Assembly (NCBI GenBank): GCA_902826395.1
Contig: CADEER010000012.1
Coordinates: 5,049-69,048 of the forward strand
DNA length: 64,000 nt
Origin: an uncultured bacterium
Lineage (GTDB): Bacteria; Desulfobacterota; Binatia; HRBIN30; CADEER01
Direction of reading: 5' to 3'
The number at the start of each line of letters is the position of its first letter. Position 1 is the first letter of the stretch. The position numbers and the translations under genes are program-made. The notes beneath the pieces are model-generated. The model made no database searches, was not told the origin of the DNA, and saw nothing but the letters and a program-made list of their open reading frames with translations. Below are positions 39,215 to 49,676 of the stretch, piece by piece.

Positions 39215-39685
39215 ATGTCCGGAAATCCGAAGATGCCTGCATACCGCCCGCCGCTGCTCGCGGGCCTCGCCATGGTCGCTCTGCTCGGGACGATTGCCGA
39301 GCCGGCGCATGCGCGGCGCGCCAGACTGCCGCTCTCGGTGCGGATCACCGCTTACGTCAATGCCAAGCCCGAGGGTTTCAACCCGCAGTTCGAGTGGGTC
39401 GTATCGCATCGGCGCGAGAGGATACGGCTGTACATCCAGCGCTTGTTCGTAACGACCGGCGATGCCTCGCCCGGTCAGGTCGACAGTGCCGTCGATCCCT
39501 TCCAGGTACAGTTTCAACTTGCCGGCGAGGCGGCGGCGCTGGAGCAATTGATGACGGCTCCAGCCGGGACCCGTGTCGTCATCGATGCCTTTCTGCAGAT
39601 GGCAGGTGCCCGCATGATGATGGTCAACAGCGTGCGGATCGAGGCCGAGCCGACCGTGGCCGCGACGCCGGCGGTGACCCCGTGA
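39215..39685 (+). CDS. Small secreted hypothetical protein
   Basis: ATG 39215 lies 3 nt after a GGAGGT RBS. It has a signal peptide (LLAGLAMVALLGTIAEPAHA). There is no recognisable domain. It is tightly coupled to the upstream kinase. Confidence 0.5.
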   Translation: MSGNPKMPAYRPPLLAGLAMVALLGTIAEPAHARRARLPLSVRITAYVNAKPEGFNPQFEWVVSHRRERIRLYIQRLFVTTGDASPGQVDSAVDPFQVQFQLAGEAAALEQLMTAPAGTRVVIDAFLQMAGARMMMVNSVRIEAEPTVAATPAVTP

Positions 39686-39861: not shown

Positions 39862-40743
39862 ATGACGACCAACGAAGACTTCCTGCGCTTTAAGGGCACC
39901 GACCGATACATCGCCTCCGGACCGCTCGTCGACGCGGTCAACTGCGCCATCGCGCTCGAGCGGCCGCTGCTGCTGAAGGGCGAGCCCGGCACCGGCAAGA
40001 CGGTGCTGGCACAGCACGTCGCGGCAGGGCTCGGCATGCCGATGCTGTCGTGGCACATCAAGTCGACTTCGAAGGCGGCCGACGGACTCTACATCTACGA
40101 CACGGTGCAGCGCCTCAACGACAGCCGCTTCGGCGGCGGCGACGTCGCCGACATCAACCACTACATCAAGCTCGGCCCGCTCGGACGCACGTTCGAAGCC
40201 GAGAATCGACACGTTCTGTTGATCGACGAGATCGACAAGGCCGACCTCGAGTTTCCGAACGACCTCCTGCGCGAGCTCGACGAGATGCGCTTCACGATCA
40301 CCGAGACCGGCCGCGAGGTCATGGCGCAACAGCGACCCGTCGTGTTGATCACCTCGAACAACGAGAAAGAATTGCCGGACGCCTTCCTGCGCCGCTGCGT
40401 GTTCTACTTCATCGAGTTCCCCAGCGTCGAGCTGATGCGACGCATCATCGCCGTGCACCATCCCAACCTCGACGCGGCGCTGCTCGACCAGGTGTTGATC
40501 AAGTTCTACTGGCTGCGCGAGCAGAACGAGCTGCGCAAGAAGCCGTCGACCTCGGAGCTCATCGACTGGATCAGCGCCCTCTTGCGCTCCGGCATCTCAC
40601 AGGAGCAGCTCGAGGCGCACATCCCGTTCATCGGAGCGCTGCTGAAGACCGAGCAGGACGTCGAAGCCCTCACCACATACAACAAGCGCGACGGCCGCTA
40701 CCCGACCAACTGGCAAGACCTCGGCCCGCGCTACAATCAGTGA
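39862..40743 (+). CDS. MoxR-family AAA+ ATPase (CoxD/CbbQ-like, ~293 aa)
   Basis: Start at ATG 39862 (MTTNEDFL). Walker A is LLKGEPGTGKT, Walker B is HVLLIDEIDKA, and sensor/Arg-finger motifs are present. The size and layout match CoxD-like partners of CoxE VWA proteins. Confidence 0.85.
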   Translation: MTTNEDFLRFKGTDRYIASGPLVDAVNCAIALERPLLLKGEPGTGKTVLAQHVAAGLGMPMLSWHIKSTSKAADGLYIYDTVQRLNDSRFGGGDVADINHYIKLGPLGRTFEAENRHVLLIDEIDKADLEFPNDLLRELDEMRFTITETGREVMAQQRPVVLITSNNEKELPDAFLRRCVFYFIEFPSVELMRRIIAVHHPNLDAALLDQVLIKFYWLREQNELRKKPSTSELIDWISALLRSGISQEQLEAHIPFIGALLKTEQDVEALTTYNKRDGRYPTNWQDLGPRYNQ

Positions 40744-41311
40744 TGCAGCAGCATTGAGGGCGGGAGATTGCCACATACGGCGCAAGCTCGAATAGGGCTC
40801 GGCTTGCTACCTCCGTCCCGGTAAACATTTGTCCTCGTCCGGGCCGACACACAGGCTGACTTCGCTTTGCCCGTCGGCGGTCGATGACGAGATTGTAGTA
40901 CATTGCAAGCCGTCCTCACACGGGTTGCACTCTTTCATCAGGCAGGCGAACGAGCAGCTCAGTTGACGTGCGGCTGCATCGCCGCACGTGGCGCGTATGC
41001 ACTCCGTCTGACAGACACGCATGCCGCGCTCATCCGCCTCGCATTTCTCGTGACACGTGTCGGTGCAAGCTCGGACTTCAGGTTGCGAGCAGTCGTCCTT
41101 CTCCATGCACTTCGCTTGGCATTCCTTCGCCTTCTGAGGGTCGCATGGTTGACACTCCGCAAGCTTAGTCGCTGGATTCTTACTCCAGCTCATCCCCGGT
41201 GAAATCAGTGTCGCGATCATTACGAGCACCGATCCACAACGATGCGTTCTGCCCGACCTTAACGCTGAAGTCATCGAGCGGAGTTGTGTACAGAATGTGG
41301 ACCGGAGGCAA
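40744..41311. other. ~0.57-kb lower-GC islet between the MoxR stop and a duplicated copy of the MoxR 3' end
   Basis: Visibly lower GC (~57% by eye) than the flanks. It carries the Cys-rich ORF on the minus strand. It is bounded by 40627-40743 (gene 3' end) and 41312-41365 (diverged duplicate). Confidence 0.4.
40807..41274 (-). CDS. Cysteine-rich (18 Cys) small secreted protein, unknown function
   Basis: The 155-aa ORF has a signal-peptide-like N-terminus (RCGSVLVMIATLISPG). The mature ~125 aa contain 18 Cys in repeated C-x(2-7)-C spacing (ECQPCDPQKAKECQAKCMEKDDC...CHEKCEADERGMRVCQTECIRATC...). There is no strong RBS and the start is uncertain. Codon composition differs from the neighbours. 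Confidence 0.5.
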   Translation of the reverse strand: MTSALRSGRTHRCGSVLVMIATLISPGMSWSKNPATKLAECQPCDPQKAKECQAKCMEKDDCSQPEVRACTDTCHEKCEADERGMRVCQTECIRATCGDAAARQLSCSFACLMKECNPCEDGLQCTTISSSTADGQSEVSLCVGPDEDKCLPGRR

Positions 41312-41365
41312 GCGAAGTGCCTTCATCGGAGCGCTGCTCGAGACTGAGCAGGACGGCCCGCGCTA
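41312..41365 (+). repeat. Diverged duplicate of the 3' end of the MoxR gene (direct repeat of 40627-40660 + 40724-40743)
   Basis: ttcatcggagcgctgctcgagactgagcaggacg|gcccgcgctacaatcagtag matches the gene end except for a 63-nt internal gap and a few substitutions. It is in frame, forming a 27-codon mini-ORF (ATG 41286, MWTGGKRSAFIGALLETEQDGPRYNQ*). Confidence 0.6.
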
Positions 41366-41390
41366 CAATCAGTAGCGCGGGCCGTAAAGG

Positions 41391-41798
41391 TCAATATGCC
41401 TGCGCCGCTCCGACGGCGGGCTGGAACAACACCTCGGCCAGGCGAAACTGTCGCGAGCGCCCGGACGGTACCGGCCAGGAGATGGATTGGCCGGTGCGCA
41501 AACCGAGCAAGGCCGCTCCGACGGGCGCGAGGACGGAGATCTTGTTCTCCGCGACATTTGCGTCGTGCGGATACACGAGTGTGATTTCCGTCTGGTCGCC
41601 TGTTTCCTCGTCGACGAACCGCACCACCGAGCCCATGGTGACGACATCGGACGTCACTTCACTCTCGTCGACGATCTCGGCGCGCTCGAGCTCGGCGGCG
41701 AGCGCCGCGACTTCGCCGCTGCGTCGCCGCTGCGCGAGCAAGCGCTCCAGGACGGCGTGATCGTTCTGGCAGATGGTGATCGGCGGAAGTGGCTTCAT
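41391..41798 (-). CDS. rnk: GreA/GreB-family protein, Rnk-like (regulator of nucleoside diphosphate kinase)
   Basis: The 135-aa product has a GreA/GreB C-terminal FKBP-like domain (VTMGSVVRFVDEETGDQTEITLVYPHDAN...SVLAPVGAALLGLRTGQSISW). Confidence 0.75.
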   Translation of the reverse strand: MKPLPPITICQNDHAVLERLLAQRRRSGEVAALAAELERAEIVDESEVTSDVVTMGSVVRFVDEETGDQTEITLVYPHDANVAENKISVLAPVGAALLGLRTGQSISWPVPSGRSRQFRLAEVLFQPAVGAAQAY

Positions 41799-41959
41799 GG
41801 CAGACTCCTACTGTGCTGCGAGGCGCGAGATCCACGCCCGGGTGCCGCAGGGCCAACACGGCGAGTGATGACTTCCATGAGTAACCGCCGATTCCGTTGC
41901 CGGCAATCTCCGGCGTTCCCACGTTCGTAGCCGGATCGGCCGCGCGGCAGCTCGCCGGT

Positions 41960-43258
41960 CTAGTCCGCCGAAGGCAGAGCGAGGCGGACGCTGAGGCCGC
42001 CGAGGTTGGCGCGCTCCAGCGTCAGGGCGCCGCCGTAGAGATCGGTCAGATCGGCGGCGATCGACAGGCCGAGGCCGGAACCGGGGGTCGTCGCGTCGAA
42101 GCGCGTGCCCCTTTCCAGGGAGCGCTTCGCCGCTTCGGGGCTCAGGCCGGGTCCGTCGTCGTCAATCTGTAGGTGGAGTTGTTGGCCAACGACATTCCCG
42201 CGCACCGAGACAGTCGCGGCGGCCCACTTACACGCATTGTCCATCAAGTTTCCGAGGATCTCTTCGAGATCCTGCTGCTCGCCGGCGAAGACGAGATCGC
42301 GAGGCATTGTGACATCGATCGAGAGGCCTCTTCCGGTGTGTAGTCGCAGCAAGGTTGGGCGCAACGCGTCCACGACGGCGCGGACGTCCGTGCGCGATCC
42401 CGGAATGCGTCGCGCGCCGGCGGCGGCAGCGCGTGTGAGGTGGTGATCCACCAGGCGTCTCATGATGCCCACCTGATCCTTGATCGCTCCGACTTGCGGG
42501 CTGCCGCCGGAAGCATCGGCGGCGATCACCGACAACGGGGTCTTCAGCGCGTGGGCGAGATCGCCGACGTGGCTTCGCGCTCGTTCGATCAGTTGCCGCT
42601 GGTGCTCGAGGACGTCGTTCATCGCGCCGACCAGCGGCTCGACCTCGCGGGGATACTCGTCGCGCAGCCGCTCGGCTCGCCCTGCGCGAACGTCCTGCAG
42701 CTCGTCGGCGAGGCGCTGCAGCGGACGCAATCCGTAGCCCACCTGGACGGCGATCGCGATGGCGAGGCCGACGCCGAAGATCGCCAGCGCAGAAAGCAGC
42801 AGTCGATCGAACGCATCGATCTCGCGCTGCAGCTCCTCCTGCGGTGCCGCCACGGCGACGCGGATGGCCTGTGCCCGCGACGGAAACTGCAGCGTGCGTT
42901 CTCTGAGGCGCAGCGCCTCGCCGCGCGGTCCCGAGATCGCACCGGTCTCCAGCAGGTGATCCCAGAGCGAACGCGAGCGCAGGTGGTGGTCTTCGTCGGA
43001 CACCTGCCAGTACCAACCCGAGTAGGGGCGCTCGAAGCGCGGCTCGGGAATCGGCCGCGTCATCGCCGCCGGTCCGCCGGGTGGCACGTCGAGGGCCGCA
43101 ATCACCGCAATCAACAGCGACTGCAGGCGGTCGTCGAATGCGTTCTCGACGGATCGGCGGAATGCGACGGATAAAACCAGGCCGGCGGCGGCAAGTGCCA
43201 GGATGGTCCACACCGCCGTGCCAGCGAGGAGGCGGGCGCGGAAGGAGCGCAGCCTCAT
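41960..43258 (-). CDS. Sensor histidine kinase (periplasmic sensor + HAMP + HisKA + HATPase_c)
   Basis: Start at ATG (complement 43256-43258), overlapping the response-regulator stop (ATGA). Two TM helices flank a ~150-aa periplasmic domain. The H-box is DLAHALKTPL, the N-box LGNLMDNACKWA, and the G-boxes DDGPGL / GSGLGLSI. Confidence 0.85.
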   Translation of the reverse strand: MRLRSFRARLLAGTAVWTILALAAAGLVLSVAFRRSVENAFDDRLQSLLIAVIAALDVPPGGPAAMTRPIPEPRFERPYSGWYWQVSDEDHHLRSRSLWDHLLETGAISGPRGEALRLRERTLQFPSRAQAIRVAVAAPQEELQREIDAFDRLLLSALAIFGVGLAIAIAVQVGYGLRPLQRLADELQDVRAGRAERLRDEYPREVEPLVGAMNDVLEHQRQLIERARSHVGDLAHALKTPLSVIAADASGGSPQVGAIKDQVGIMRRLVDHHLTRAAAAGARRIPGSRTDVRAVVDALRPTLLRLHTGRGLSIDVTMPRDLVFAGEQQDLEEILGNLMDNACKWAAATVSVRGNVVGQQLHLQIDDDGPGLSPEAAKRSLERGTRFDATTPGSGLGLSIAADLTDLYGGALTLERANLGGLSVRLALPSAD

Positions 43259-43920
43259 CGAGACTTCGAGCTCATGCGATAGCCCTGACCGCGTATGGTC
43301 TCGATCACGTCGACGGTGATCTTGCGCCGGATGCGACCGATCAGCACGTCGATGACGTTCGAGTCGCGATCGAAGTCGCGGTCGTAGACGTGGTCGATGA
43401 TGTCGAGGCGGCTGACGATGCGATCGCGGCGGTGCAGGAGATACTCGAGGATTCTCAGCTCGTGTGTGGTGAGCCGCACCGGCGCGCCGTCGACGGTGAC
43501 CGAGCCGCTGGTGGTGTCCAGTCGCAGAGGGCCGCACTCGATCGCCGCCGACGGCGCACCGGCGGCGCGGCGCATGAGCGCTCGCAAACGGACGATCACC
43601 TCCTGAACCTCGAACGGCTTGGTCACGTAGTCGTCAGCGCCCGCCGAGAAGGCAGCAAGCTTCTCGGGCCAGCGGCCGCGAGCGGTGAGGACGAGGACGG
43701 GCGTTTCGATTCCGGCGGAGCGCCAGCGTTGCAGCACCGACACCCCATCCATTCGCGGCAGACCGAGATCGAGGACGACCGCATCGTATGGCTCGATCTT
43801 GCCGAGGTGCAGCGCCTCTTCGCCGTCGGCGACTGGTTCGACGACGAACCCGGCATCCACCAGAGCCTCGCGAAGCCGCTGCGCGAGCGCGGCTTCGTCC
43901 TCGACCAGAAGGATTCTCAT
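43255..43920 (-). CDS. OmpR-family response regulator
   Basis: Start MRILLVEDE (complement 43918-43920). The receiver Asp is in AVVLDLGLP. The C-terminal winged helix is LTTHELRILEYLL...VIDVLIGRIRRKI. Confidence 0.9.
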   Translation of the reverse strand: MRILLVEDEAALAQRLREALVDAGFVVEPVADGEEALHLGKIEPYDAVVLDLGLPRMDGVSVLQRWRSAGIETPVLVLTARGRWPEKLAAFSAGADDYVTKPFEVQEVIVRLRALMRRAAGAPSAAIECGPLRLDTTSGSVTVDGAPVRLTTHELRILEYLLHRRDRIVSRLDIIDHVYDRDFDRDSNVIDVLIGRIRRKITVDVIETIRGQGYRMSSKSR

Positions 43921-44237
43921 TTCGCTTTGCGCGCCGCGTCGACTTTCTCGCCGGTCGTTTCGAGGCGCACCGTCTTGGCGTCGTACTCGAGCTCGAGCAC
44001 GCTCCCGCTGGTGAGCAGCTCGACTTCGTAGATCCATCGGCCGCCGTCGCGTTCCAACTCGACCTCGATGACCTCTCCCTCGAAGCTCGATTGGACTGCG
44101 TCGAGCACCTTCGTGAGAGCGACGATCTCGCCGGCCTCGTATGCTTTTCGAGCCTCGTCGTGATCCCCGTCGGCCAGGGTTGTGCCGACCAAGCCGACCA
44201 GGGGCAGGGTTGCCAGTATCACCCGTCGTATGCGCAT
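43917..44237 (-). CDS. PepSY domain secreted protein
   Basis: The 106-aa product has a signal peptide and a single PepSY fold (VIEVELERDGGRWIYEVELL). Its stop overlaps the RR start. Confidence 0.7.
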   Translation of the reverse strand: MRIRRVILATLPLVGLVGTTLADGDHDEARKAYEAGEIVALTKVLDAVQSSFEGEVIEVELERDGGRWIYEVELLTSGSVLELEYDAKTVRLETTGEKVDAARKAK

Positions 44238-44258
44238 CGCTTTTCTTTACTCGTTGCG

Positions 44259-44314
44259 ATTAAACGCCGAATGAACGAACGAGTCACGTTCGGTTCACGG
44301 ACGGGTATTAAACG
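44259..44314. promoter_or_regulatory. Divergent promoter/operator region between two PepSY genes: direct repeats ATTAAACG x2 flanking an imperfect palindrome
   Basis: ATTAAACG occurs at 44259-44266 and 44307-44314 (48-bp spacing). gaacgaacg-agtca-cgttcggttc (44273-44296) is an imperfect inverted repeat. The region is AT-rich relative to the window. A GGAGA RBS precedes ATG 44372. Confidence 0.35.
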
Positions 44315-44371
44315 TGTCTGCGAAATCGGCGCGATGGGCGCGCCGACACTACGGACACAAGGAGATCGCAG

Positions 44372-44656
44372 ATGAAGACGACGATGCACAAGATCCGTAC
44401 CCTCGGCCTGTTCGCCGCGGCGATGGGGCTGGCCGCGACACCTGTCCTCGCGGCAGATGTCACCGATGCGGCGAAAGCCGAGATGTCGCCGGCCGAGATC
44501 GTTCGCGCCGTCGAGGCAGCCGGCTACACCAACGTCCGCGACATCGAGTTCGACGACGGGCGCTGGGAAATGGAAGCGACGTCACCGGCCGGTGCGCCGG
44601 TCGATCTCGAGGTCGACGCCAAGACCGGCAAGGTCCTGCATGAGGAAGCCGACTGA
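44372..44656 (+). CDS. PepSY domain secreted protein
   Basis: The 94-aa product has a signal peptide (LGLFAAAMGLAATPVLA) and a PepSY fold (IEFDDGRWEMEATSPAGAPVDLEVDAKTGKVL). Confidence 0.7.
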   Translation: MKTTMHKIRTLGLFAAAMGLAATPVLAADVTDAAKAEMSPAEIVRAVEAAGYTNVRDIEFDDGRWEMEATSPAGAPVDLEVDAKTGKVLHEEAD

Positions 44657-44723
44657 ACAAAGCGATGGCTCGGGGGCGCCGCCCCCGGGCCATCGAAGGT
44701 CGCCGCCGGCGTCCGGTTCGCGT

Positions 44724-45674
44724 TCAATGGAGCGACGCGTCCGCCACGACGTGCGGTAAGTTCGAAGGTTCGGCGGTGCGCTCCGGACTCTGGGATGATC
44801 GCTCCAACGCCAGTCGGCGCAGCGGCGACGGCCCCTCGATCCAACGAATCAAGCTCGAGATCAGCTTCGCTGCCGGCGTCACGACGGCGCGATGCGCTAG
44901 CGTGGAATGCGCCAACCCGAGCTTGCGCTTGGCCCAACCCGGCAGGATGCCGATCGATGCCCGGATCAGCACCGACCGAGCGATCTGGTCTGCCGGTTCG
45001 GCGCTGGGGTCGTGCATGAGGAACTCGACCGTTTCGCGCGCCTGCTGGCCGGCGTCGAGCTCGGGTTGCATCGCGCGGTAGTAGGCGCGCACCTCGGCGA
45101 CCGATTGTGGCACCTGGGCGGCCCCCAGCCGCGCCGCGATCACCGACATCTCGGCGAGGTATCGATCGCAGTCGCGGTCGGACAGCGGCGCTCCGGAGTA
45201 GCGCTGGTAGCCGCGCAAGAACGACGCCGCCTCGGCGGTGTGGACCCAGGTGAGCAGCTTCGGATCGTTGGCCGAGTACGGCCGTCCATCGGGTGCCGAG
45301 CCGACTACCCGCTCGTGCACCTTGCGAACACCTCGAATGGCGCGCTCGGCCAGCGGCGTACCGCCGTAGGTCGTGACCGCGATGAAGCGCGCCGTCATCG
45401 CCAGCCGGTGCTTCGGATCCTCGCGAAAGTTGGAGTGGTCGGTGACGCCGGCCATGGCCAGCGGGTGGAGAGTTTGAATCAGCAGCGCTCCCACGCCGCC
45501 GATCAGCATACTCGGCAGGTCGGAGTGCACCTGCCACGTCACGCTGTCGGGACCGAAGAGGCCCGCGTCGCCGAGCGGCTGCGAATAATCATCGGGCTCG
45601 CGCACGCCTCCGTAGAGACTGCGTTCGAGCGACACATGTGCTTCGCGGCGGATGCTCTCCAGGCGGTCGCCCAT
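44724..45674 (-). CDS. MpaB/RubberOxygenase-family (DUF2236) oxygenase
   Basis: The true start is ATG (complement 45672-45674, MGDRLESIRREAH). The conserved GPDSVTWQVH...LLIQTLHPLAMAGV...HTAEAASFLRGY blocks are typical of DUF2236 ER-bound-oxygenase-like proteins. The upstream 270 codons of the ORF are spurious. Confidence 0.7.
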   Translation of the reverse strand: MGDRLESIRREAHVSLERSLYGGVREPDDYSQPLGDAGLFGPDSVTWQVHSDLPSMLIGGVGALLIQTLHPLAMAGVTDHSNFREDPKHRLAMTARFIAVTTYGGTPLAERAIRGVRKVHERVVGSAPDGRPYSANDPKLLTWVHTAEAASFLRGYQRYSGAPLSDRDCDRYLAEMSVIAARLGAAQVPQSVAEVRAYYRAMQPELDAGQQARETVEFLMHDPSAEPADQIARSVLIRASIGILPGWAKRKLGLAHSTLAHRAVVTPAAKLISSLIRWIEGPSPLRRLALERSSQSPERTAEPSNLPHVVADASLH

Positions 45675-45676
45675 TG

Positions 45677-46714
45677 CTACGCCAGGGGGTCGAAGGGGGC
45701 GTCGGCGTTCGAGGAGGTGTCTTCGTCGCTGCGGCGTCTGTCTTCGCGCCGGTCGGCGATCAGAGAGGCGGCAACTGTGATGGTGAGAATGACACTGATG
45801 ACGACCAGCGAAGTCCAGGTGGGCGGATGCCAGTGGAAGAAGTAGCCGGCCAGCATTTTCAAGCCTACGAAGGCGAGAATCAGGCCCAGGCCGTTGTTCA
45901 GATAGCGGAGCTTGTCCTGCATCCCGTTGAGCAGGAAGTAGAGAGAGCGCAGGCCGAGGATCGCGAAGGCGTTCGAGCTGAACACGATGAACGGCTCGTG
46001 TGACACGGCGAGGATCGCCGGAATGGAGTCGACGGCGAACACCACGTCGGTAGTCTCGACCATGATCAGCACGGCAAACAGCGGCGTCGCCATGCGCTTG
46101 CCGTCGCGCACGGTGAAGAGCTTCTGTCCGTCGTACACGCCGGTCGATGGGATGACCTTGCGCATCAGCCGCAGCACCGGGTTCTTTTCCGGGTGAACCT
46201 CGGCGTCGTCGTGGGTGGCGATCTTCCACGCCGAGTACAGCAGGATCACGCCGAAGATGGCCAGGGTCCAGTCGAAGGCCTCGATCATGGCAACGCCGGC
46301 GAAGATGAAGATGGCGCGCAGTACGAGTGCGCCGAAGATGCCCCAGAACAGGACTCGGAACTGATACTTCTTGGGCACGCCGAAGTAGCTGAAGATGACG
46401 GCCCAGACGAAGACGTTGTCGACCGACAGCGATTTCTCGATCAGGTAGCCGGCGATGTACTCCCCGGCGGCCTGGGTTCCCTGCCACCAGAACATGACTC
46501 CGGTGAAGGCCACTCCAATGGCGATCCAGATCGTCGACTCGATGGCCGCCTCGCGAAACGAGATTTCATGTGCGGTGCGATGCACCAGCAGCAGGTCGGC
46601 CACGAGCAGAATGGTGACGAAGGCCAGGAAAAGACCCCACTGCCAGGGGTGCACGTCGAAAGTGGCGAAGTTCGCCGCCCGACTCGAGGTCTCGGCGAGA
46701 GTGATGGCGTTCAT
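45677..46714 (-). CDS. TerC/Alx-family integral membrane protein
   Basis: The 345-aa product has ~9 TM helices. The TerC signature is LSVDNVFVWAVIF...FAVDSIPAILAVSHEPFIVFSSNAFAILGLRSLYF. Confidence 0.85.
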   Translation of the reverse strand: MNAITLAETSSRAANFATFDVHPWQWGLFLAFVTILLVADLLLVHRTAHEISFREAAIESTIWIAIGVAFTGVMFWWQGTQAAGEYIAGYLIEKSLSVDNVFVWAVIFSYFGVPKKYQFRVLFWGIFGALVLRAIFIFAGVAMIEAFDWTLAIFGVILLYSAWKIATHDDAEVHPEKNPVLRLMRKVIPSTGVYDGQKLFTVRDGKRMATPLFAVLIMVETTDVVFAVDSIPAILAVSHEPFIVFSSNAFAILGLRSLYFLLNGMQDKLRYLNNGLGLILAFVGLKMLAGYFFHWHPPTWTSLVVISVILTITVAASLIADRREDRRRSDEDTSSNADAPFDPLA

Positions 46715-46875
46715 GAGAGATGTTGCCTCCGGCTAGGAAAGTGATTTTTTCCAGCCTGAGTCTCTCCACCTCCGGGTGTCGAACACCAAGAGGCCTGCCG
46801 TCCCGGGTGACCATGCGGCCACCGTGCTGACGTCACGGCTGTTTCGGATACTCCCTCAGACGGGCGTCAACCTAG
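46715..46875 (-). ncRNA. Candidate yybP-ykoY (Mn2+) riboswitch-like 5' leader of the TerC gene
   Basis: A 160-nt untranslated leader precedes TerC. It contains GGGAGUA and UUGGUGUUCGACACCCGGAGG...GAGAGACUCAGG, reminiscent of conserved yybP-ykoY junction/loop elements. TerC/Alx genes are the canonical downstream genes of this riboswitch class. Not verified by a covariance model. Confidence 0.3.
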
Positions 46876-46936
46876 CGGAGCGGTCGATGAGAGCCAATAT
46901 CCCAGGGCGGATTCCAGGCAATGGGCGCGGGGGCCG

Positions 46937-48325
46937 CTAAACCTGGAGCAAATAGAGCATCGCGCCAGCCGCGGTGCAGGCCGCGAGGGTCGATACCATT
47001 CCCCAGCCGAGGCGGAAGAGCATGACGAAGGCGGCAGCGGCCACTGCGACGGATGCCCAACTGGTGGTGTGCGGGTCCGGTACCAGAAGTCGCAAGCCGT
47101 GCCAGTGGACCTCGGTGACGACGCCGAAGGCGACGTGCAGGCCGAACCAGACGGCGAGGTTGAGAATGACTCCGACGACGGCCGCCGTGATTGCGCTCAG
47201 CGCCGCGGTGAGCGAGCGGCTGCCGCGCAGTCTCTCGATGTACGGCGCACCGAGAAAGATCCACAGGAAGCACGGCACGAACGTCACCCAAACCGTCATC
47301 AGGGCGCCCAGGACTCCGGCGACCAGCGGGGTGAACGGCTCCGGGTTGCGGTAGGCGCCGAGGAAGCCGACGAACTGCACCACCATGATCAGCGGCCCGG
47401 GCGTCGTCTCCGCCATGCCGAGGCCGTCGAGCATCTCGCCGGGCGCCAGCCAGCCGTAGGTCTCGACCGCCTGCTGCGCGATGTAGGCGAGAACGGCGTA
47501 GGCACCACCGAACGTGACGACGGCGGCTTTGCTGAAGAAGACGCCCTCGCGCACCAGCACGTGTGACGAGCCGAGCCACAGCGCCAGCAGGGCCAGCGGG
47601 GTTCCCCATAGGACGATGAAGATCGCCGCGACGCGCAGCGCGCGCGCAGCGGTCGGTTTCACCGCGGGTCCTGTCAGTTCGTCGGTGACGGCGGCCGATG
47701 CCGTTGCGCCGCCGCGCGGCGTCGCAAAGATCTCGGGCAGCACGCGACCGCCCAGCAATCCCAGCAATCCCGCTCCGAGAACGATCAGAGGAAAGGGCAC
47801 ATCCAGGAAGAAGATCGCCAGGAAGGCAGCGGCGGCGATGCCGACCATGAAACGGTTCTTCAGTGCGCGCTTGCCGATGCGGACCACCGCCTCGATCACG
47901 ATGGCGAGGACCGCGGCCTTGAGGCCGAAGAACAACGCCGCGAGCGCGGTCGTGTCGTGGTACGAGGCGTAGAGAATCGACAGCGTCATGATCGCGACGA
48001 AGCCGGGCAGCACGAACAGGATCCCCGCCGCGAGACCGCCGGCCGTGCCGTGCAGGAGCCAACCGATATAGGTGGCGAGCTGCTGTGCCTCGGGACCGGG
48101 CAGCAACATGCAGTAGTTGAGCGCGTGCAGAAACCGCTCCTCGCTCACCCAACGCTTCTCCTCGACGAGGATGCGGTGCATCACCGCAATCTGCCCCGCC
48201 GGCCCGCCGAAGCTTAGCGCCGCAACCCGCAGCCACACGCGCAACGCCTCGGAGAAGGAGACGGTGTGGGCTGCACCGCCCGGCGGCGCCGCTCCGAGGG
48301 TACGGTGTGGAGGGGATTTGAGCAC
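46937..48325 (-). CDS. chrA: Chromate transporter ChrA (fused two-domain CHR family)
   Basis: The 462-aa product has two homologous halves of ~6 TM each. CHR family motifs are ALSFGGPAGQIAVMH and GLGMAETTPGPLIMVVQFVGFLGA. Confidence 0.85.
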   Translation of the reverse strand: MLKSPPHRTLGAAPPGGAAHTVSFSEALRVWLRVAALSFGGPAGQIAVMHRILVEEKRWVSEERFLHALNYCMLLPGPEAQQLATYIGWLLHGTAGGLAAGILFVLPGFVAIMTLSILYASYHDTTALAALFFGLKAAVLAIVIEAVVRIGKRALKNRFMVGIAAAAFLAIFFLDVPFPLIVLGAGLLGLLGGRVLPEIFATPRGGATASAAVTDELTGPAVKPTAARALRVAAIFIVLWGTPLALLALWLGSSHVLVREGVFFSKAAVVTFGGAYAVLAYIAQQAVETYGWLAPGEMLDGLGMAETTPGPLIMVVQFVGFLGAYRNPEPFTPLVAGVLGALMTVWVTFVPCFLWIFLGAPYIERLRGSRSLTAALSAITAAVVGVILNLAVWFGLHVAFGVVTEVHWHGLRLLVPDPHTTSWASVAVAAAAFVMLFRLGWGMVSTLAACTAAGAMLYLLQV

Positions 48326-48473
48326 CGCGCGACGTCTAGCAAACGAGTGAGACGCGGGCGACGACGTCGGGGTCGGGCCGCGGTGGCCTTACGAACCGAC
48401 ATAGGCTAGCCAATAGGCATCTCGGTGAACCCCTCTGTGCCTGCGTGCCTCTGTGGTTCAGAGTCTCTCGACC

Positions 48474-49676
48474 ATGTTTCTCGACTTATTCTACGGACTG
48501 CGCGACGAAGGCGTGCCGATCGGCATCCAGGAGTGGATGGCGTTCCTGCAGGCGCTGGAGAAGGGCCTGCACGGCTCGGACCTGCTGCGCTTCTACCATC
48601 TCGGCCGCGCCTGTCTGATCAAGAGCGAGACCTACTTCGACGCCTACGACCGCGTCTTCGCGCGCGTCTTCAAGGGCATCGAGGGGCAGTTCGGCGACGA
48701 CGTCACCCAGGAGGTGATGGACTGGCTGCGCAATCCGGAGAACTTCAAGGAGCTGACCGACGAGCAGCGCGCGCAGCTCGAGGCGCTGAGCCGCGACGAG
48801 CTGATGCGGCGCTTCCTCGAGACGCTGGCCGAGCAGGACGAGCGACACGACGGTGGTGACCGCTGGGTGGGCACCGGCGGGCGGTCGCCGTTCGGCAACA
48901 ACGGCGAGCACCCGAGCGGCATCCGGGTCGGCGGCCAGAGCAAGAACCGCTCGGCGATGAAGGTCGCCGAGGAGCGCAAGTTCAAGGACTATCGCACCGA
49001 TCAGCAGCTCGATGTCCGCCAGCTGAAGGTGTCGCTGCGCCGCCTGCGCCAGCTCACCCGCAACGGTCAGGCGACCGAGCTCGACCTCGACGAAACGGTC
49101 GACGAGACCTGCCGCAACGCCGGCGAGATCGAGCTGGTGTTCCGCGCGCCGCGGCGCAACAACGTGCGCCTGCTGCTGTTGATGGATGTCGGCGGGACCA
49201 TGGACCCGTACTTCGAACCGGTCAGCCGCCTGCTCACCGCCCTGCACGAGTATCACGGCCTGCGCGAGCTGCAGTCGTACTACTTCCACAACTGCATCTA
49301 CGACCACGTCTACACCAGCGGCCGCATGACCCGCGCCGACGCCTTTCCGACCGCCGACATCCTGCGCCGCCTCGACAGCCGCTGGAAGGTCGCGATTGTC
49401 GGCGACGCCTCGATGCACCCCGCCGAGCTGCTCGAGGCCTACGGCTCGATCGACCCGCGCAAGGAGTCGCCGACGCCCGGCATCGTCTGGCTGCAACGCA
49501 TCGCCGATCATTTCGAGCGCACGGTATGGGTCAATCCCGACGGCCGCGCCTATTGGAACGGCTCGCACACCGCGCGCATCGTGCAGCGCCTGTTCCCGAT
49601 GTTCCACCTCAGCGTCGACGGCATCACCGAGGCCATGCAGGCGCTCGTCGGCGCCCGCCGCTCGACCGCTGCGTAG
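48474..49676 (+). CDS. VWA-domain protein, CoxE-like (partner family of CoxD/MoxR ATPases)
   Basis: ATG 48474 gives the N-terminus [28 protein letters not shown], typical of the CoxE family. The VWA/MIDAS region is [14 protein letters not shown]. An upstream GTG 48453 is less likely. Confidence 0.8.

What the first reader, a model, noticed from the sequence alone, without database searches (positions are those of the whole stretch)
40627..41365. Lower-GC 0.57-kb insert encoding an 18-cysteine secreted protein, bracketed by a duplicated 3' end of the MoxR gene
The last ~35 nt plus the final 20 nt of the MoxR gene (40627-40660 and 40724-40743) recur 570 bp downstream at 41312-41365. The copy is diverged and shortened but still in frame with a stop, and forms a 27-codon remnant ORF. 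The intervening DNA has clearly lower GC than the window. Its only ORF is a minus-strand Cys-rich small secreted protein with metallothionein- or defensin-like C-x(n)-C spacing. This is the signature of an element integrated at the 3' end of a protein-coding gene with att-like direct repeats. The element is either a minimal or decayed integrative element, or a cassette-like insertion. The Cys-rich cargo has no obvious homolog class.
Basis: seen in the sequence. Interest (0 to 1): 0.65.

Follow-up and report, generated by a model that had tools for sequence, protein, structure and literature searches.

The report
Orphan cysteine-rich gene beside displaced moxR end
A 0.58-kb lower-GC stretch carrying one orphan gene for a secreted 18-cysteine protein sits between the intact end of a moxR gene and a decayed copy of that end; it is a real insertion, but it looks like an ordinary recombination scar, not a mobile element.

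Summary
The last 34 nt and last 20 nt of the moxR repeat unit (40627-40660, 40722-40741) recur at 41322-41375, in frame, with a stop and a 63-nt internal deletion. The 578 nt in between are the lowest-GC stretch of the 64-kb window. They hold a 155-codon minus-strand ORF: a signal peptide plus a 124-aa mature part with 18 Cys. The ORF looks coding. Its only database relative (L087) gives dN/dS 0.32 and conserves 12 of 12 Cys.

A sister lineage (L088/L089) has moxR directly abutting rnk, with no insert and no duplicate. That is an empty-site allele.

The "integrative element with att sites" reading is only partly supported. I found no recombinase in the predicted genes scanned with Pfam across the window, no terminal repeats and no second copy. 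The element's ends are not conserved elsewhere. Both repeat copies carry this lineage's own sequence states.

The wider context is a moxR-VWA operon, contiguous in all nine closest relatives, that is split here by 7.7 kb. The only relative of the Cys ORF lies in the same interval of another rearranged genome.

Best reading: a joint made by one-sided homologous plus illegitimate recombination, which displaced the old moxR 3' end. The feature is real and tidy, but mechanistically ordinary.

The parts
39862..40743 (+). moxR-type AAA+ ATPase gene, intact, 293 aa, stop TGA
   Evidence: Pfam AAA_5 and AAA. It is 87-91% identical at the protein level to orthologues that carry the same long C-terminus.
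40627..40743 (+). Direct-repeat copy 1: the functional last 39 codons of moxR
   Evidence: It is conserved against orthologues, including the 63 nt that copy 2 lacks.
40744..40806 (.). Spacer s1 between the moxR stop and the Cys-ORF stop, 60% GC
   Evidence: It has no counterpart in L087 or L088. It contains GCCACATACGGCG, which resembles the 16-nt moxR-VWA spacer of L084; this is weak evidence.
40807..41274 (-). Orphan ORF, 155 aa. Residues 1-31 look like a Sec signal peptide (three Arg, then a hydrophobic core at 13-25, then SWS). The mature part is 124 aa, pI 4.8, with 18 Cys in CX2C, CX3C and CX4C spacings.
   Evidence: Against L087, dN/dS is 0.32 and 12 of 12 Cys are conserved. The one population SNP (40867) is synonymous. 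No family hit.
41275..41321 (.). Spacer s2 with the illegitimate joint. 41309-41320 is a perfect 12-nt inverted copy of 41107-41118 and ends 1 nt before the remnant.
   Evidence: only 1.8% of shuffles give any 12-nt inverted repeat in this 881-nt region.
41322..41375 (+). Direct-repeat copy 2: the displaced, decaying moxR 3' end. It has 3 substitutions and a 63-nt deletion, and its stop is TAG, as in three of the close orthologues (L084-L086).
   Evidence: It occupies the position next to rnk that the intact moxR end occupies in L088/L089.
41353..41385 (.). Perfect 14-bp GC-rich hairpin with a 5-nt loop. It straddles the remnant's stop and lies 6 nt from the rnk stop.
   Evidence: dG -35 kcal/mol, z = -8.4. 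It is unique in the window. It is the longest perfect hairpin in the window and the only intergenic one.
41391..41798 (-). rnk (GreA/GreB-family regulator), the first gene of the 7.1-kb accessory block
   Evidence: Pfam GreA_GreB and Rnk_N. Its orthologue in L088/L089 lies directly next to moxR.
41376..48473 (.). Accessory block separating moxR from its VWA partner: rnk, a PhoQ-like kinase, an OmpR-type regulator (assigned by reading the translation, not searched), two PepSY proteins, an MpaB-like oxygenase, TerC and ChrA
   Evidence: ChrA, the window's TerC and the OmpR-type regulator were named from their translations (TerC also by 89% nt identity to the Pfam-annotated TerC of L088), not from a family search. 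L088 carries part of the block at 84-89% nt identity. The block is absent from nine closer or more distant relatives.
48474..49676 (+). VWA (CoxE-type) partner gene of moxR, intact but 7.7 kb from moxR
   Evidence: tblastn gives 70% identity to the L001 VWA protein. Nucleotide identity to L084-L087 is 82-86%.

Best explanation
This is a recombination joint, not a self-mobile element.

In this lineage (named Candidatus Binatia on some related proteins) the normally contiguous moxR-VWA operon has been pulled apart by accessory DNA. At one stage moxR ended directly against the convergent rnk gene, which is the state still seen in L088/L089.

Later, DNA from a close relative, or from elsewhere in the same genome, arrived. 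It carried "moxR 3' end - 63-nt spacer - Cys-rich gene". It paired with the resident moxR by homology on one side. On the other side it was joined illegitimately at 41321/41322, 39 codons upstream of the resident stop codon. This is the topology of homology-facilitated illegitimate recombination, or "C-terminal displacement".

The resident last 39 codons were therefore displaced downstream, not replaced. Freed from selection, they lost 63 nt and gained three substitutions. The remaining stub pairs with the sequence just after its stop to form a perfect hairpin, which probably terminates the convergent transcripts.

The cargo is an orphan gene for an acidic, Sec-exported protein that is mostly helical and has 18 Cys. 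The protein is most likely disulfide-knotted (nine pairs possible) or metal-binding.

What is shown:
- the duplication and its decay;
- the compositional break exactly at the moxR stop;
- the empty-site allele;
- the coding signature of the ORF;
- the absence of recombinase hits in the genes scanned and of element termini.

What is inferred:
- the one-sided homologous mechanism;
- which side was the donor;
- export, disulfides and metal binding of the protein;
- the terminator role of the hairpin.
For: 1. Repeat anatomy. Identity starts at 40627/41322 and ends at the first base of the stop codon. Copy 1 ends TGA and copy 2 ends TAG. That is what is expected if two haplotypes differing only downstream of moxR were joined.

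2. Native flank. Copy 2 keeps rnk 15 nt away, just as the full moxR end lies 31 nt from rnk in L088/L089.

3. Timing. The two copies agree at 5 sites where L088 differs. The private changes are 1 in copy 1, 2 in copy 2 and 5 in L088. The duplication is therefore younger than the split from L088, and the duplicate is of native origin.

4. Ancestral state. moxR-VWA is contiguous in 9 of 9 relatives at 73-91% protein identity, and the gap is 60 nt or less in about 131 of 147 loci overall.

5. Same interval elsewhere. Among 1.84 billion representative proteins, the only relative of the ORF (P0168/L087) lies in the same moxR-VWA interval, in the same orientation, in a genome rearranged differently.

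6. Coding signature. dN/dS is 0.32 in the ORF frame against 0.53-1.6 in the other five frames. All 12 aligned Cys are kept, while 19 of 70 other residues changed.

7. No recombinase, terminal repeats or extra copies.

8. A 12-nt inverted filler-like copy lies at the joint.

9. The mechanism is documented elsewhere. PMC5361080 describes displaced gene ends left by one-sided homologous plus illegitimate recombination. It cites de Vries and Wackernagel 2002 (PMC122324) and Jackson et al. 2009 (PMC2935791).
Against: - No donor haplotype (moxR - s1 - Cys gene) has been seen. L087 has the Cys sequence next to VWA, not next to moxR, and only its 3' 250 nt.
- The crossover point inside moxR cannot be located.
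- The L088 "empty site" could equally be a secondary precise deletion between the two direct repeats.
- The timing argument rests on 8 variable sites, and gene conversion between the copies would mimic it.
- Ending the duplication exactly at the stop codon is also what a surrogate 3' end carried on an attP would give.
- L087 has many indels in moxR and VWA. It may be partly misassembled.
Confidence: 0.5

Rival explanations
1. A minimal or decayed site-specific integrative element (CIME-like, mobilised in trans) integrated into an attB formed by the moxR 3' end. It brought a surrogate 3' end. The two repeats are attL and attR.
For: - Direct repeats bracket a compositionally distinct single-gene segment.
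- Identity stops exactly at the stop codon, and the gene is reconstituted.
- An empty site exists.
- The only other copy of the cargo also lies in the moxR-VWA interval, as site specificity would predict.
Against: - No recombinase hit in the predicted genes scanned across the 64-kb window.
- No conserved element ends: L087 shares only 250 nt inside the ORF.
- No third repeat at the chrA-VWA boundary, which tandem accretion would leave.
- No copy in plasmid, phage, viral or metagenome collections.
- Both repeats carry the host lineage's own states.
Confidence: 0.17
2. Reversed polarity. The Cys gene is the older resident of the moxR-VWA spacer (ancestor: moxR - Cys - VWA). The incoming piece was the 7.1-kb rnk...chrA block, preceded by a fragment of a moxR 3' end. 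It was anchored by homology in VWA and joined illegitimately upstream of the Cys gene. L088 later lost the Cys gene by recombination between the two then-longer direct repeats.
For: - The Cys sequence is present in both the window and L087. These two share orf156 and GSDH synteny, so parsimony puts the Cys gene in their common ancestor.
- W-L087 divergence of the Cys fragment (80% nt) matches that of the flanking genes (82-84%).
- Direct repeats of 117 nt would readily delete the 578-nt segment.
Against: - The repeat copies are more alike (3 of 54 differences) than either is to L088 (6-7 of 54), and they share 5 states against L088.
- The Cys segment has not ameliorated: GC3 is 65-70% in the window against 83% for the same codons in L087. 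That fits poorly with long residence.
- The model needs an earlier, unexplained moxR-rnk junction to supply the fragment.
Confidence: 0.2
3. Purely local replication error. A tandem duplication or template switch within the interval was followed by deletions. It moved an already nearby Cys gene and copied the moxR end, with no horizontal input.
For: - A perfect 14-bp palindrome at the remnant's end.
- A 12-nt inverted copy exactly at the joint.
- A 63-nt deletion with 2-nt microhomology.
- The Cys homologue in L087 sits beside VWA, where it could also have been in the window's ancestor.
Against: - At least three events are needed.
- No leftover of the Cys region or of the moxR end lies at the chrA-VWA side.
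- It does not explain the low GC and atypical codon usage of the segment.
Confidence: 0.1
4. The Cys-rich ORF is not a functional gene. On this view the segment is non-coding filler or a dying pseudogene, and the cysteine pattern is incidental.
For: - The gene caller behind the protein databases did not call the ORF in identical contigs.
- No Shine-Dalgarno-like sequence precedes the ATG (read directly).
- GC3 is low.
- The L087 copy is 5'-truncated and fused to the VWA start.
- AlphaFold confidence is low, pLDDT 52-54.
Against: - The frame stays open for 155 codons at 58% GC.
- Cys codons are frame-specific: 19 in frame against 4 and 4.
- dN/dS is 0.32 and is lowest in this frame; 12 of 12 Cys are conserved; third-position changes predominate at 24 of 52.
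- The N-terminus looks like a signal peptide.
- The only population SNP is synonymous.
Confidence: 0.12

Closest known systems
C-terminal displacement and orphan 3' ends at Rhs, CDI and T6SS effector loci, attributed to homology-facilitated illegitimate recombination (Kirchberger et al. 2017, PMC5361080; Jackson et al. 2009, PMC2935791; de Vries and Wackernagel 2002, PMC122324)
   Same: - A new gene 3' end plus downstream cargo sits next to the intact 5' part.
- The old 3' end is pushed downstream as a decaying stub.
- No dedicated recombinase is involved.
- One side is homologous and the other illegitimate.
   Different: - The target here is a housekeeping-type AAA+ chaperone gene, not a polymorphic toxin.
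- The new and old ends encode the same sequence, so there is no functional swap.
- Only one displaced stub is present, not an array.
- The cargo is not an immunity gene.
Genomic islands and cis-mobilisable elements (CIMEs) integrated at the 3' end of a gene, with attL and attR direct repeats (named from my own knowledge of the ICE/IME literature)
   Same: - Direct repeats derive from the target gene's 3' end.
- The target gene is restored.
- The cargo differs in composition.
- Relatives carry an empty site.
   Different: - No recombinase was found in the genes scanned with Pfam across the window.
- The ends are not conserved in the one other occurrence.
- At 0.58 kb the segment is far smaller than known islands.
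- The repeats carry the host's own lineage-specific states.
Cysteine-rich helical proteins: vanabins (18 Cys, nine disulfides, PMC9486056), alpha-hairpinin-type CX3C proteins such as Ole e 6 (PDB 1SS3), and Csp copper-storage four-helix bundles (from my own knowledge)
   Same: - 18 Cys in a domain of about 120 aa.
- CX3C, CX2C and CX4C spacings on predicted helices.
- An export signal.
- In L087 the homologue sits beside a copper-oxidase and efflux cluster.
   Different: - Sequence matches are sub-threshold only. Ole e 6 gives E 0.07. Vanabin-2 (PF11437) gives E 0.017-0.053, 14-16 bits against a cut-off of 25, and only for the L087 fragment.
- No other Pfam family reached E<=10, so none of the metallothionein or copper-storage families I know of matched.
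- The structure model is too weak to compare folds.

Membership tests
Site-specific integrative element / CIME | Direct repeats (attL/attR) flanking the element, derived from the target site | tested here: met
   40627-40743 and 41322-41375.
Site-specific integrative element / CIME | A tyrosine or serine recombinase inside or beside the element; for a CIME, a cognate one elsewhere in the genome | tested here: not met
   About 40 predicted genes across the 64-kb window gave no integrase, transposase or resolvase hit. The rest of the genome could not be examined.
Site-specific integrative element / CIME | The same element with conserved ends recurs in other genomes or sites | tested here: not met
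   The only relative (L087) shares window 40805-41055, inside the ORF. Neither spacer and neither repeat is shared. Nothing was found in plasmids, phages, viral contigs or metagenome contigs.
Site-specific integrative element / CIME | Empty attB in related genomes | tested here: met
   In L088/L089, moxR's full 3' end lies 31 nt from rnk. A secondary deletion between the repeats cannot be excluded.
Site-specific integrative element / CIME | Excised circular form or attP junction | not testable with these tools
   This needs raw reads of ERR3089230, ERR3089232 and ERR3089240.
Homology-facilitated illegitimate recombination / C-terminal displacement | A displaced old 3' end lies downstream of a complete new 3' end plus non-homologous cargo | tested here: met
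Homology-facilitated illegitimate recombination / C-terminal displacement | An illegitimate joint with microhomology or filler at the non-homologous end | tested here: inconclusive
   A 12-nt inverted copy of 41107-41118 ends 1 nt before the remnant (p about 0.02 by shuffling). No donor sequence is available to define the joint.
Homology-facilitated illegitimate recombination / C-terminal displacement | A donor haplotype that carries anchor plus cargo | tested here: not met
   No contig with moxR - s1 - Cys gene was found apart from the window's own population.
Integron gene cassette | An attC hairpin site at the 3' end of the ORF, and an IntI integrase or attI nearby | tested here: not met
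   The spacer downstream of the ORF folds no better than shuffles (z = -1.25). There is no integrase.
Diversity-generating retroelement (VR/TR pair at a gene's 3' end) | A reverse transcriptase nearby, and adenine-specific mismatches between TR and VR | tested here: not met
   There is no RT. The three mismatches are G/C, A/G and C/T, not adenine-specific.
Known Cys-rich metal-binding or disulfide-rich protein families (metallothionein, Csp/DUF326, Vanabin-2, myxococcal Cys-rich repeat) | A match to the family profile above its curated threshold | tested here: not met
   Pfam and NCBIfam gave no hit for the window protein. Vanabin-2 scored 14-16 bits against a cut-off of 25, and only for the L087 fragment.
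MoxR-VWA chaperone pair (context) | An AAA+ MoxR gene immediately followed by its VWA partner gene | tested here: not met
   Both genes are intact in the window but lie 7.7 kb apart. They are contiguous in 9 of 9 close relatives.

The most novel reading that the evidence does not exclude
The moxR 3' end / moxR-VWA spacer could be a specific landing site for small recombinase-less cassettes. Each would carry a replacement gene end plus one secreted-protein gene and would be mobilised in trans. The 18-Cys protein would then be the founding member of a new family of exported, vanabin- or Csp-like metal-binding or redox proteins, linked to copper and metal-stress islands. In L087 it sits beside multicopper oxidases and an RND pump. 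In the window it sits beside ChrA, TerC and PepSY genes.
Probability: 0.08. Interest if true: 0.6.

Novelty: new member of a known kind. Interest (0 to 1): 0.3.

Why it matters
This is a clean natural example of how a small foreign gene gets lodged at the end of a conserved gene without any dedicated mobility machinery. The snapshots are all available: an intact operon in nine relatives, an empty site in a sister lineage, and the filled site with a decaying duplicate.

It also exposes a blind spot. The Cys-rich ORF was not called as a gene in identical public contigs, so protein databases under-report such orphans.

If the protein proves to be exported and either nine-fold disulfide-bonded or metal-binding, it would add a new small family. 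So far that family is seen only in this Binatia-like clade. None of this changes current understanding of integration mechanisms.

Tried and rejected
- Assembly artefact. Rejected: four contigs from three runs agree.
- Chance repeat. Rejected.
- Rfam families in 38-44 kb. None found.
- Diversity-generating retroelement (TR/VR). No RT, and the mismatch pattern is wrong.
- Integron cassette. No attC-like fold and no IntI.
- IS or MITE. No terminal inverted repeats and no other copy.
- Tandem accretion of two islands. No third moxR-end copy at the chrA-VWA boundary.
- Phage or plasmid origin. No match.
- Homologues of the Cys protein. Searched with the word-indexed 5.8-billion protein database (none), exact-sequence look-up (none) and back-translated scans of metagenome and viral contigs (none). 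Exhaustive HMMER over 1.84 billion representatives gave one hit, P0168.
- Structure. Two single-sequence AlphaFold runs gave pLDDT 52 and 54. A Foldseek search of the PDB gave nothing below E = 1. No fold conclusion is possible.
- Displaced moxR end in L087. Not found.
- Recombination breakpoint inside moxR. I compared divergence to L089 along the gene by eye. Rate heterogeneity shared with other relatives makes this uninformative.
- Spacer homology. s1 and the VWA-upstream region each contain a motif of about 12 nt that resembles L084's moxR-VWA spacer. After correcting for multiple tests this is too weak to use.
Full report
**1. What is in the sequence**

moxR (39862-40743, +) is an intact AAA+ ATPase gene of the MoxR type (Pfam AAA_5 and AAA). 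Its last codons are repeated downstream.
- 40627-40660 matches 41322-41355 at 31 of 34 nt.
- 40722-40741 matches 41354-41373 at 20 of 20 nt.
- The two blocks are collinear, in frame and followed by a stop.
- Against the whole window their blastn-short E-values are 2.7e-6 and 4.2e-5, and no third copy exists.

Copy 2 therefore encodes FIGALLETEQD-GPRYNQ*. It lacks exactly 63 nt (21 codons) of copy 1, with a 2-nt overlap at the deletion joint.

The 578 nt between the copies are 58.3% GC. The window mean is 66.2% (sd 2.3% for windows of this size), and this is the lowest such stretch in 64 kb. The drop starts right after the moxR stop codon.

**2. The ORF**

40807-41274 (-) encodes 155 aa.
- The N-terminus has three arginines, a 13-residue hydrophobic core and an SWS motif, which looks like a Sec signal peptide.
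- The remaining 124 aa are acidic (pI 4.8) and contain 18 Cys, spaced CX2C, CX3C and CX4C.
- Cys codons are strongly frame-specific: 19 in frame against 4 and 4 out of frame.
- GC3 is 65%, against 79-93% in 12 neighbouring genes. Codon usage is atypical for this genome.
- Pfam, NCBIfam and PHROGs give nothing.
- The gene was not called in public contigs identical to the window.

An exhaustive HMMER scan of 1.84 billion representative proteins gave one hit, P0168 (E 2e-27, 77% identity over the C-terminal 70 residues). Aligning the underlying DNA (82 codons, no indels) gives:
- dN/dS of 0.32 in the ORF frame, against 0.53-1.6 in the other five frames;
- 24 of 52 differences at third codon positions;
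- 12 of 12 Cys conserved, while 19 of 70 other residues changed.

The single SNP in the window's own population is synonymous. I conclude the ORF is, or recently was, a real protein-coding gene. About 0.12 remains for the alternative.

Two single-sequence AlphaFold models were of low confidence (pLDDT 52-54). They show four helices plus a beta-hairpin. A fold search was uninformative.

The only sequence resemblances are sub-threshold pattern matches to other Cys-rich helical proteins. Ole e 6 gives E 0.07. Vanabin-2 gives 14-16 bits against a cut-off of 25, and only for the L087 fragment. Vanabins have 18 Cys forming nine disulfides (PMC9486056). That is an analogy, not membership.

**3.

In every close relative, moxR is followed within 10-115 nt by a VWA (CoxE-type) gene.
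- L001, L002 and L027 are 73-79% identical at the protein level.
- L084, L085, L086, L170, L171 and L172 are 87-91% identical.
- Over 147 loci with both genes, about 131 have a gap of 60 nt or less.

In the window the VWA orthologue is at 48474-49676, 7.7 kb downstream. Between the two genes lie:
- the Cys ORF;
- the moxR remnant;
- a 7.1-kb block of ordinary accessory genes: rnk, a PhoQ-like kinase, an OmpR-type regulator, two PepSY proteins, an MpaB-like oxygenase, TerC and ChrA.

The upstream backbone (Lon, UvrA-like, PFK, SDR, APH) is syntenic with the relatives, so this is chromosomal DNA. Pfam scans of about 40 predicted genes across the window found no integrase, transposase or resolvase.

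**4. Two informative relatives**

*L088/L089.* These contigs are about 85-91% identical to the window at the nucleotide level. They carry TerC - MpaB - two small genes - rnk. After a 31-nt spacer with its own hairpin comes the convergent, full-length 3' end of moxR.

There is no Cys ORF and no duplicate. This is an empty site for the 0.63-kb insert. It also shows that the moxR-rnk junction predates the insert. In the window the remnant, not the functional end, occupies the position next to rnk, 15 nt from its stop.

*L087.* This contig is 82-84% identical at the nucleotide level and shares orf156 and GSDH synteny with the window. Its order is:
- a moxR truncated at a point equivalent to about window 40695;
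- an 8.8-kb block: RND pump, HMBD protein, two multicopper oxidases, cytochromes c, Rrf2 and a 437-aa unknown;
- the 3' 250 nt of the Cys ORF (window 40805-41055);
- the VWA start codon, fused directly to that fragment.

moxR and VWA in L087 are 84% identical in DNA but only 38-54% identical when translated, so they are frameshifted pseudogenes. GSDH next door is 82% identical at both levels.

No spacer, repeat or displaced moxR end is shared with the window. The cargo therefore recurs in the same interval and orientation, but without conserved element ends.

**5. Origin and age of the duplicate**

At five sites the two window copies agree with each other and differ from L088. Copy 1 has one private change, copy 2 has two, and L088 has five.

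The copy was therefore made from this lineage's own moxR, after the split from L088, or else it has been homogenised by gene conversion. It is not a diverged surrogate end brought in from a distant donor.

Copy 1 matches the orthologues throughout, including the 63 nt missing from copy 2. Copy 2 is therefore the decaying one.

**6. Mechanism**

The simplest account is a joint between two haplotypes that differ only downstream of the moxR stop codon. One is "moxR - spacer - Cys gene". The other is "moxR - rnk...".

Homologous pairing inside moxR on one side, and an illegitimate join at 41321/41322 on the other, leaves the resident last 39 codons displaced downstream. This is the topology described for homology-facilitated illegitimate recombination and for C-terminal displacement at Rhs and T6SS loci (PMC5361080 and references therein).

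This account explains four things:
- why identity ends at the stop codon;
- why the remnant keeps its native neighbour;
- why there is no recombinase;
- why the gene stays intact.

A 12-nt perfect inverted copy of an internal ORF segment ends 1 nt before the remnant (p about 0.02). This is compatible with filler at an illegitimate joint.

I give this account 0.5. The rivals are:
- the reversed polarity (0.2), in which the Cys gene is the older resident and L088 lost it by recombination between the repeats;
- a purely local template-switch or duplication-deletion history (0.1).

These cannot be separated without the complete L088-lineage genome or raw-read evidence of excision.

**7. The hairpin**

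The remnant's last codons pair with the 13 nt that follow its stop. The result is a perfect 14-bp stem (41353-41385; dG -35 kcal/mol, z = -8.4).

It is the longest perfect hairpin in the window and the only intergenic one. It lies 6 nt beyond the rnk stop. L088 has a different hairpin at the same place.

I infer that it terminates the convergent transcripts. That role could explain why this part of the remnant is preserved perfectly (20 of 20 nt). This is inference only.

**8. Verdict**

The feature is a new example of a known kind of event, carrying an orphan gene of a so far two-member family. Interest is modest.

Noticed in passing
window 39862-40743 and 48474-49676; L087 2981-4149 and 13179-13970: The moxR-VWA pair is contiguous in nearly all relatives but split by 7.7 kb here, with both genes still intact. 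In L087 the pair is split by a different 8.8-kb block, and both genes have decayed into frameshifted pseudogenes (84% nt identity but 38-54% aa), while the neighbouring GSDH is intact.
   Followed up: partly
window 41353-41385: A perfect 14-bp GC-rich hairpin is built from the remnant's last codons and the sequence just after its stop. It is the longest perfect hairpin in the 64 kb and the only intergenic one. It may be a bidirectional terminator without a U-tract, or a corrected quasi-palindrome.
   Followed up: partly
window 41107-41118 and 41309-41320: A 12-nt perfect inverted repeat. One arm lies inside the Cys ORF. The other ends 1 nt before the moxR remnant. It may be templated filler at the recombination joint; only 1.8% of shuffles give any 12-nt inverted repeat in this region.
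   Followed up: partly
window 39215-39685 (+): A 156-aa ORF with a signal-peptide-like N-terminus and no family hit lies between APH and moxR. It is absent from L084 and L086, where APH and moxR are 40-47 nt apart. Its only detected relative is in L087 (about 47-52% aa). This is a second lineage-restricted secreted orphan at the same locus.
   Followed up: partly
L081 2248-2896; L082; L083 (contigs identical to window 40224-43638 and neighbouring parts): The public gene calls on contigs identical to the window skip the Cys-rich ORF entirely. Protein-database searches for such atypical-codon orphans are therefore biased towards "no homologue".
   Followed up: yes
L088 2490-3172 compared with window 41960-44656: The accessory block differs between the sister lineages. 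L088 has a DUF6036/AbiEii-like nucleotidyltransferase plus a 61-aa gene (toxin-antitoxin-like). The window has a PhoQ-like kinase, a response regulator and two PepSY genes in the same place.
   Followed up: no
L102 724-2119; L003 767-4413: Other relatives (about 78% aa identity) also have insertions right after moxR. L102 has a thiolase gene between moxR and VWA. L003 has a HEAT-like protein and a sulfatase, with no VWA within 3.6 kb. The moxR-VWA spacer is an occasional insertion point.
   Followed up: no
window 40769-40781 and 48407-48418; L084 10883-10898: Both the spacer after moxR and the region upstream of VWA contain a motif of about 12 nt (GCCACATACGGCG and AGCCAATAGGC). It resembles the 16-nt moxR-VWA spacer of L084 (AGCCAATACGGCGACG). 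The motifs could be relics of the ancestral spacer on both sides of the inserted DNA, but this is not significant after multiple testing.
   Followed up: partly
L087 4184-12945: In L087 the Cys-ORF fragment is the first reading frame of a same-strand series: a 437-aa unknown, then, after a divergent Rrf2 gene, cytochromes c, two multicopper oxidases, an HMBD-containing membrane-fusion protein and an RND pump. This hints at a link to copper handling.
   Followed up: no
L171 10883-10997: The moxR-VWA spacer of this relative is 115 nt long and consists of two copies of a C-rich unit of about 57 nt.
   Followed up: no
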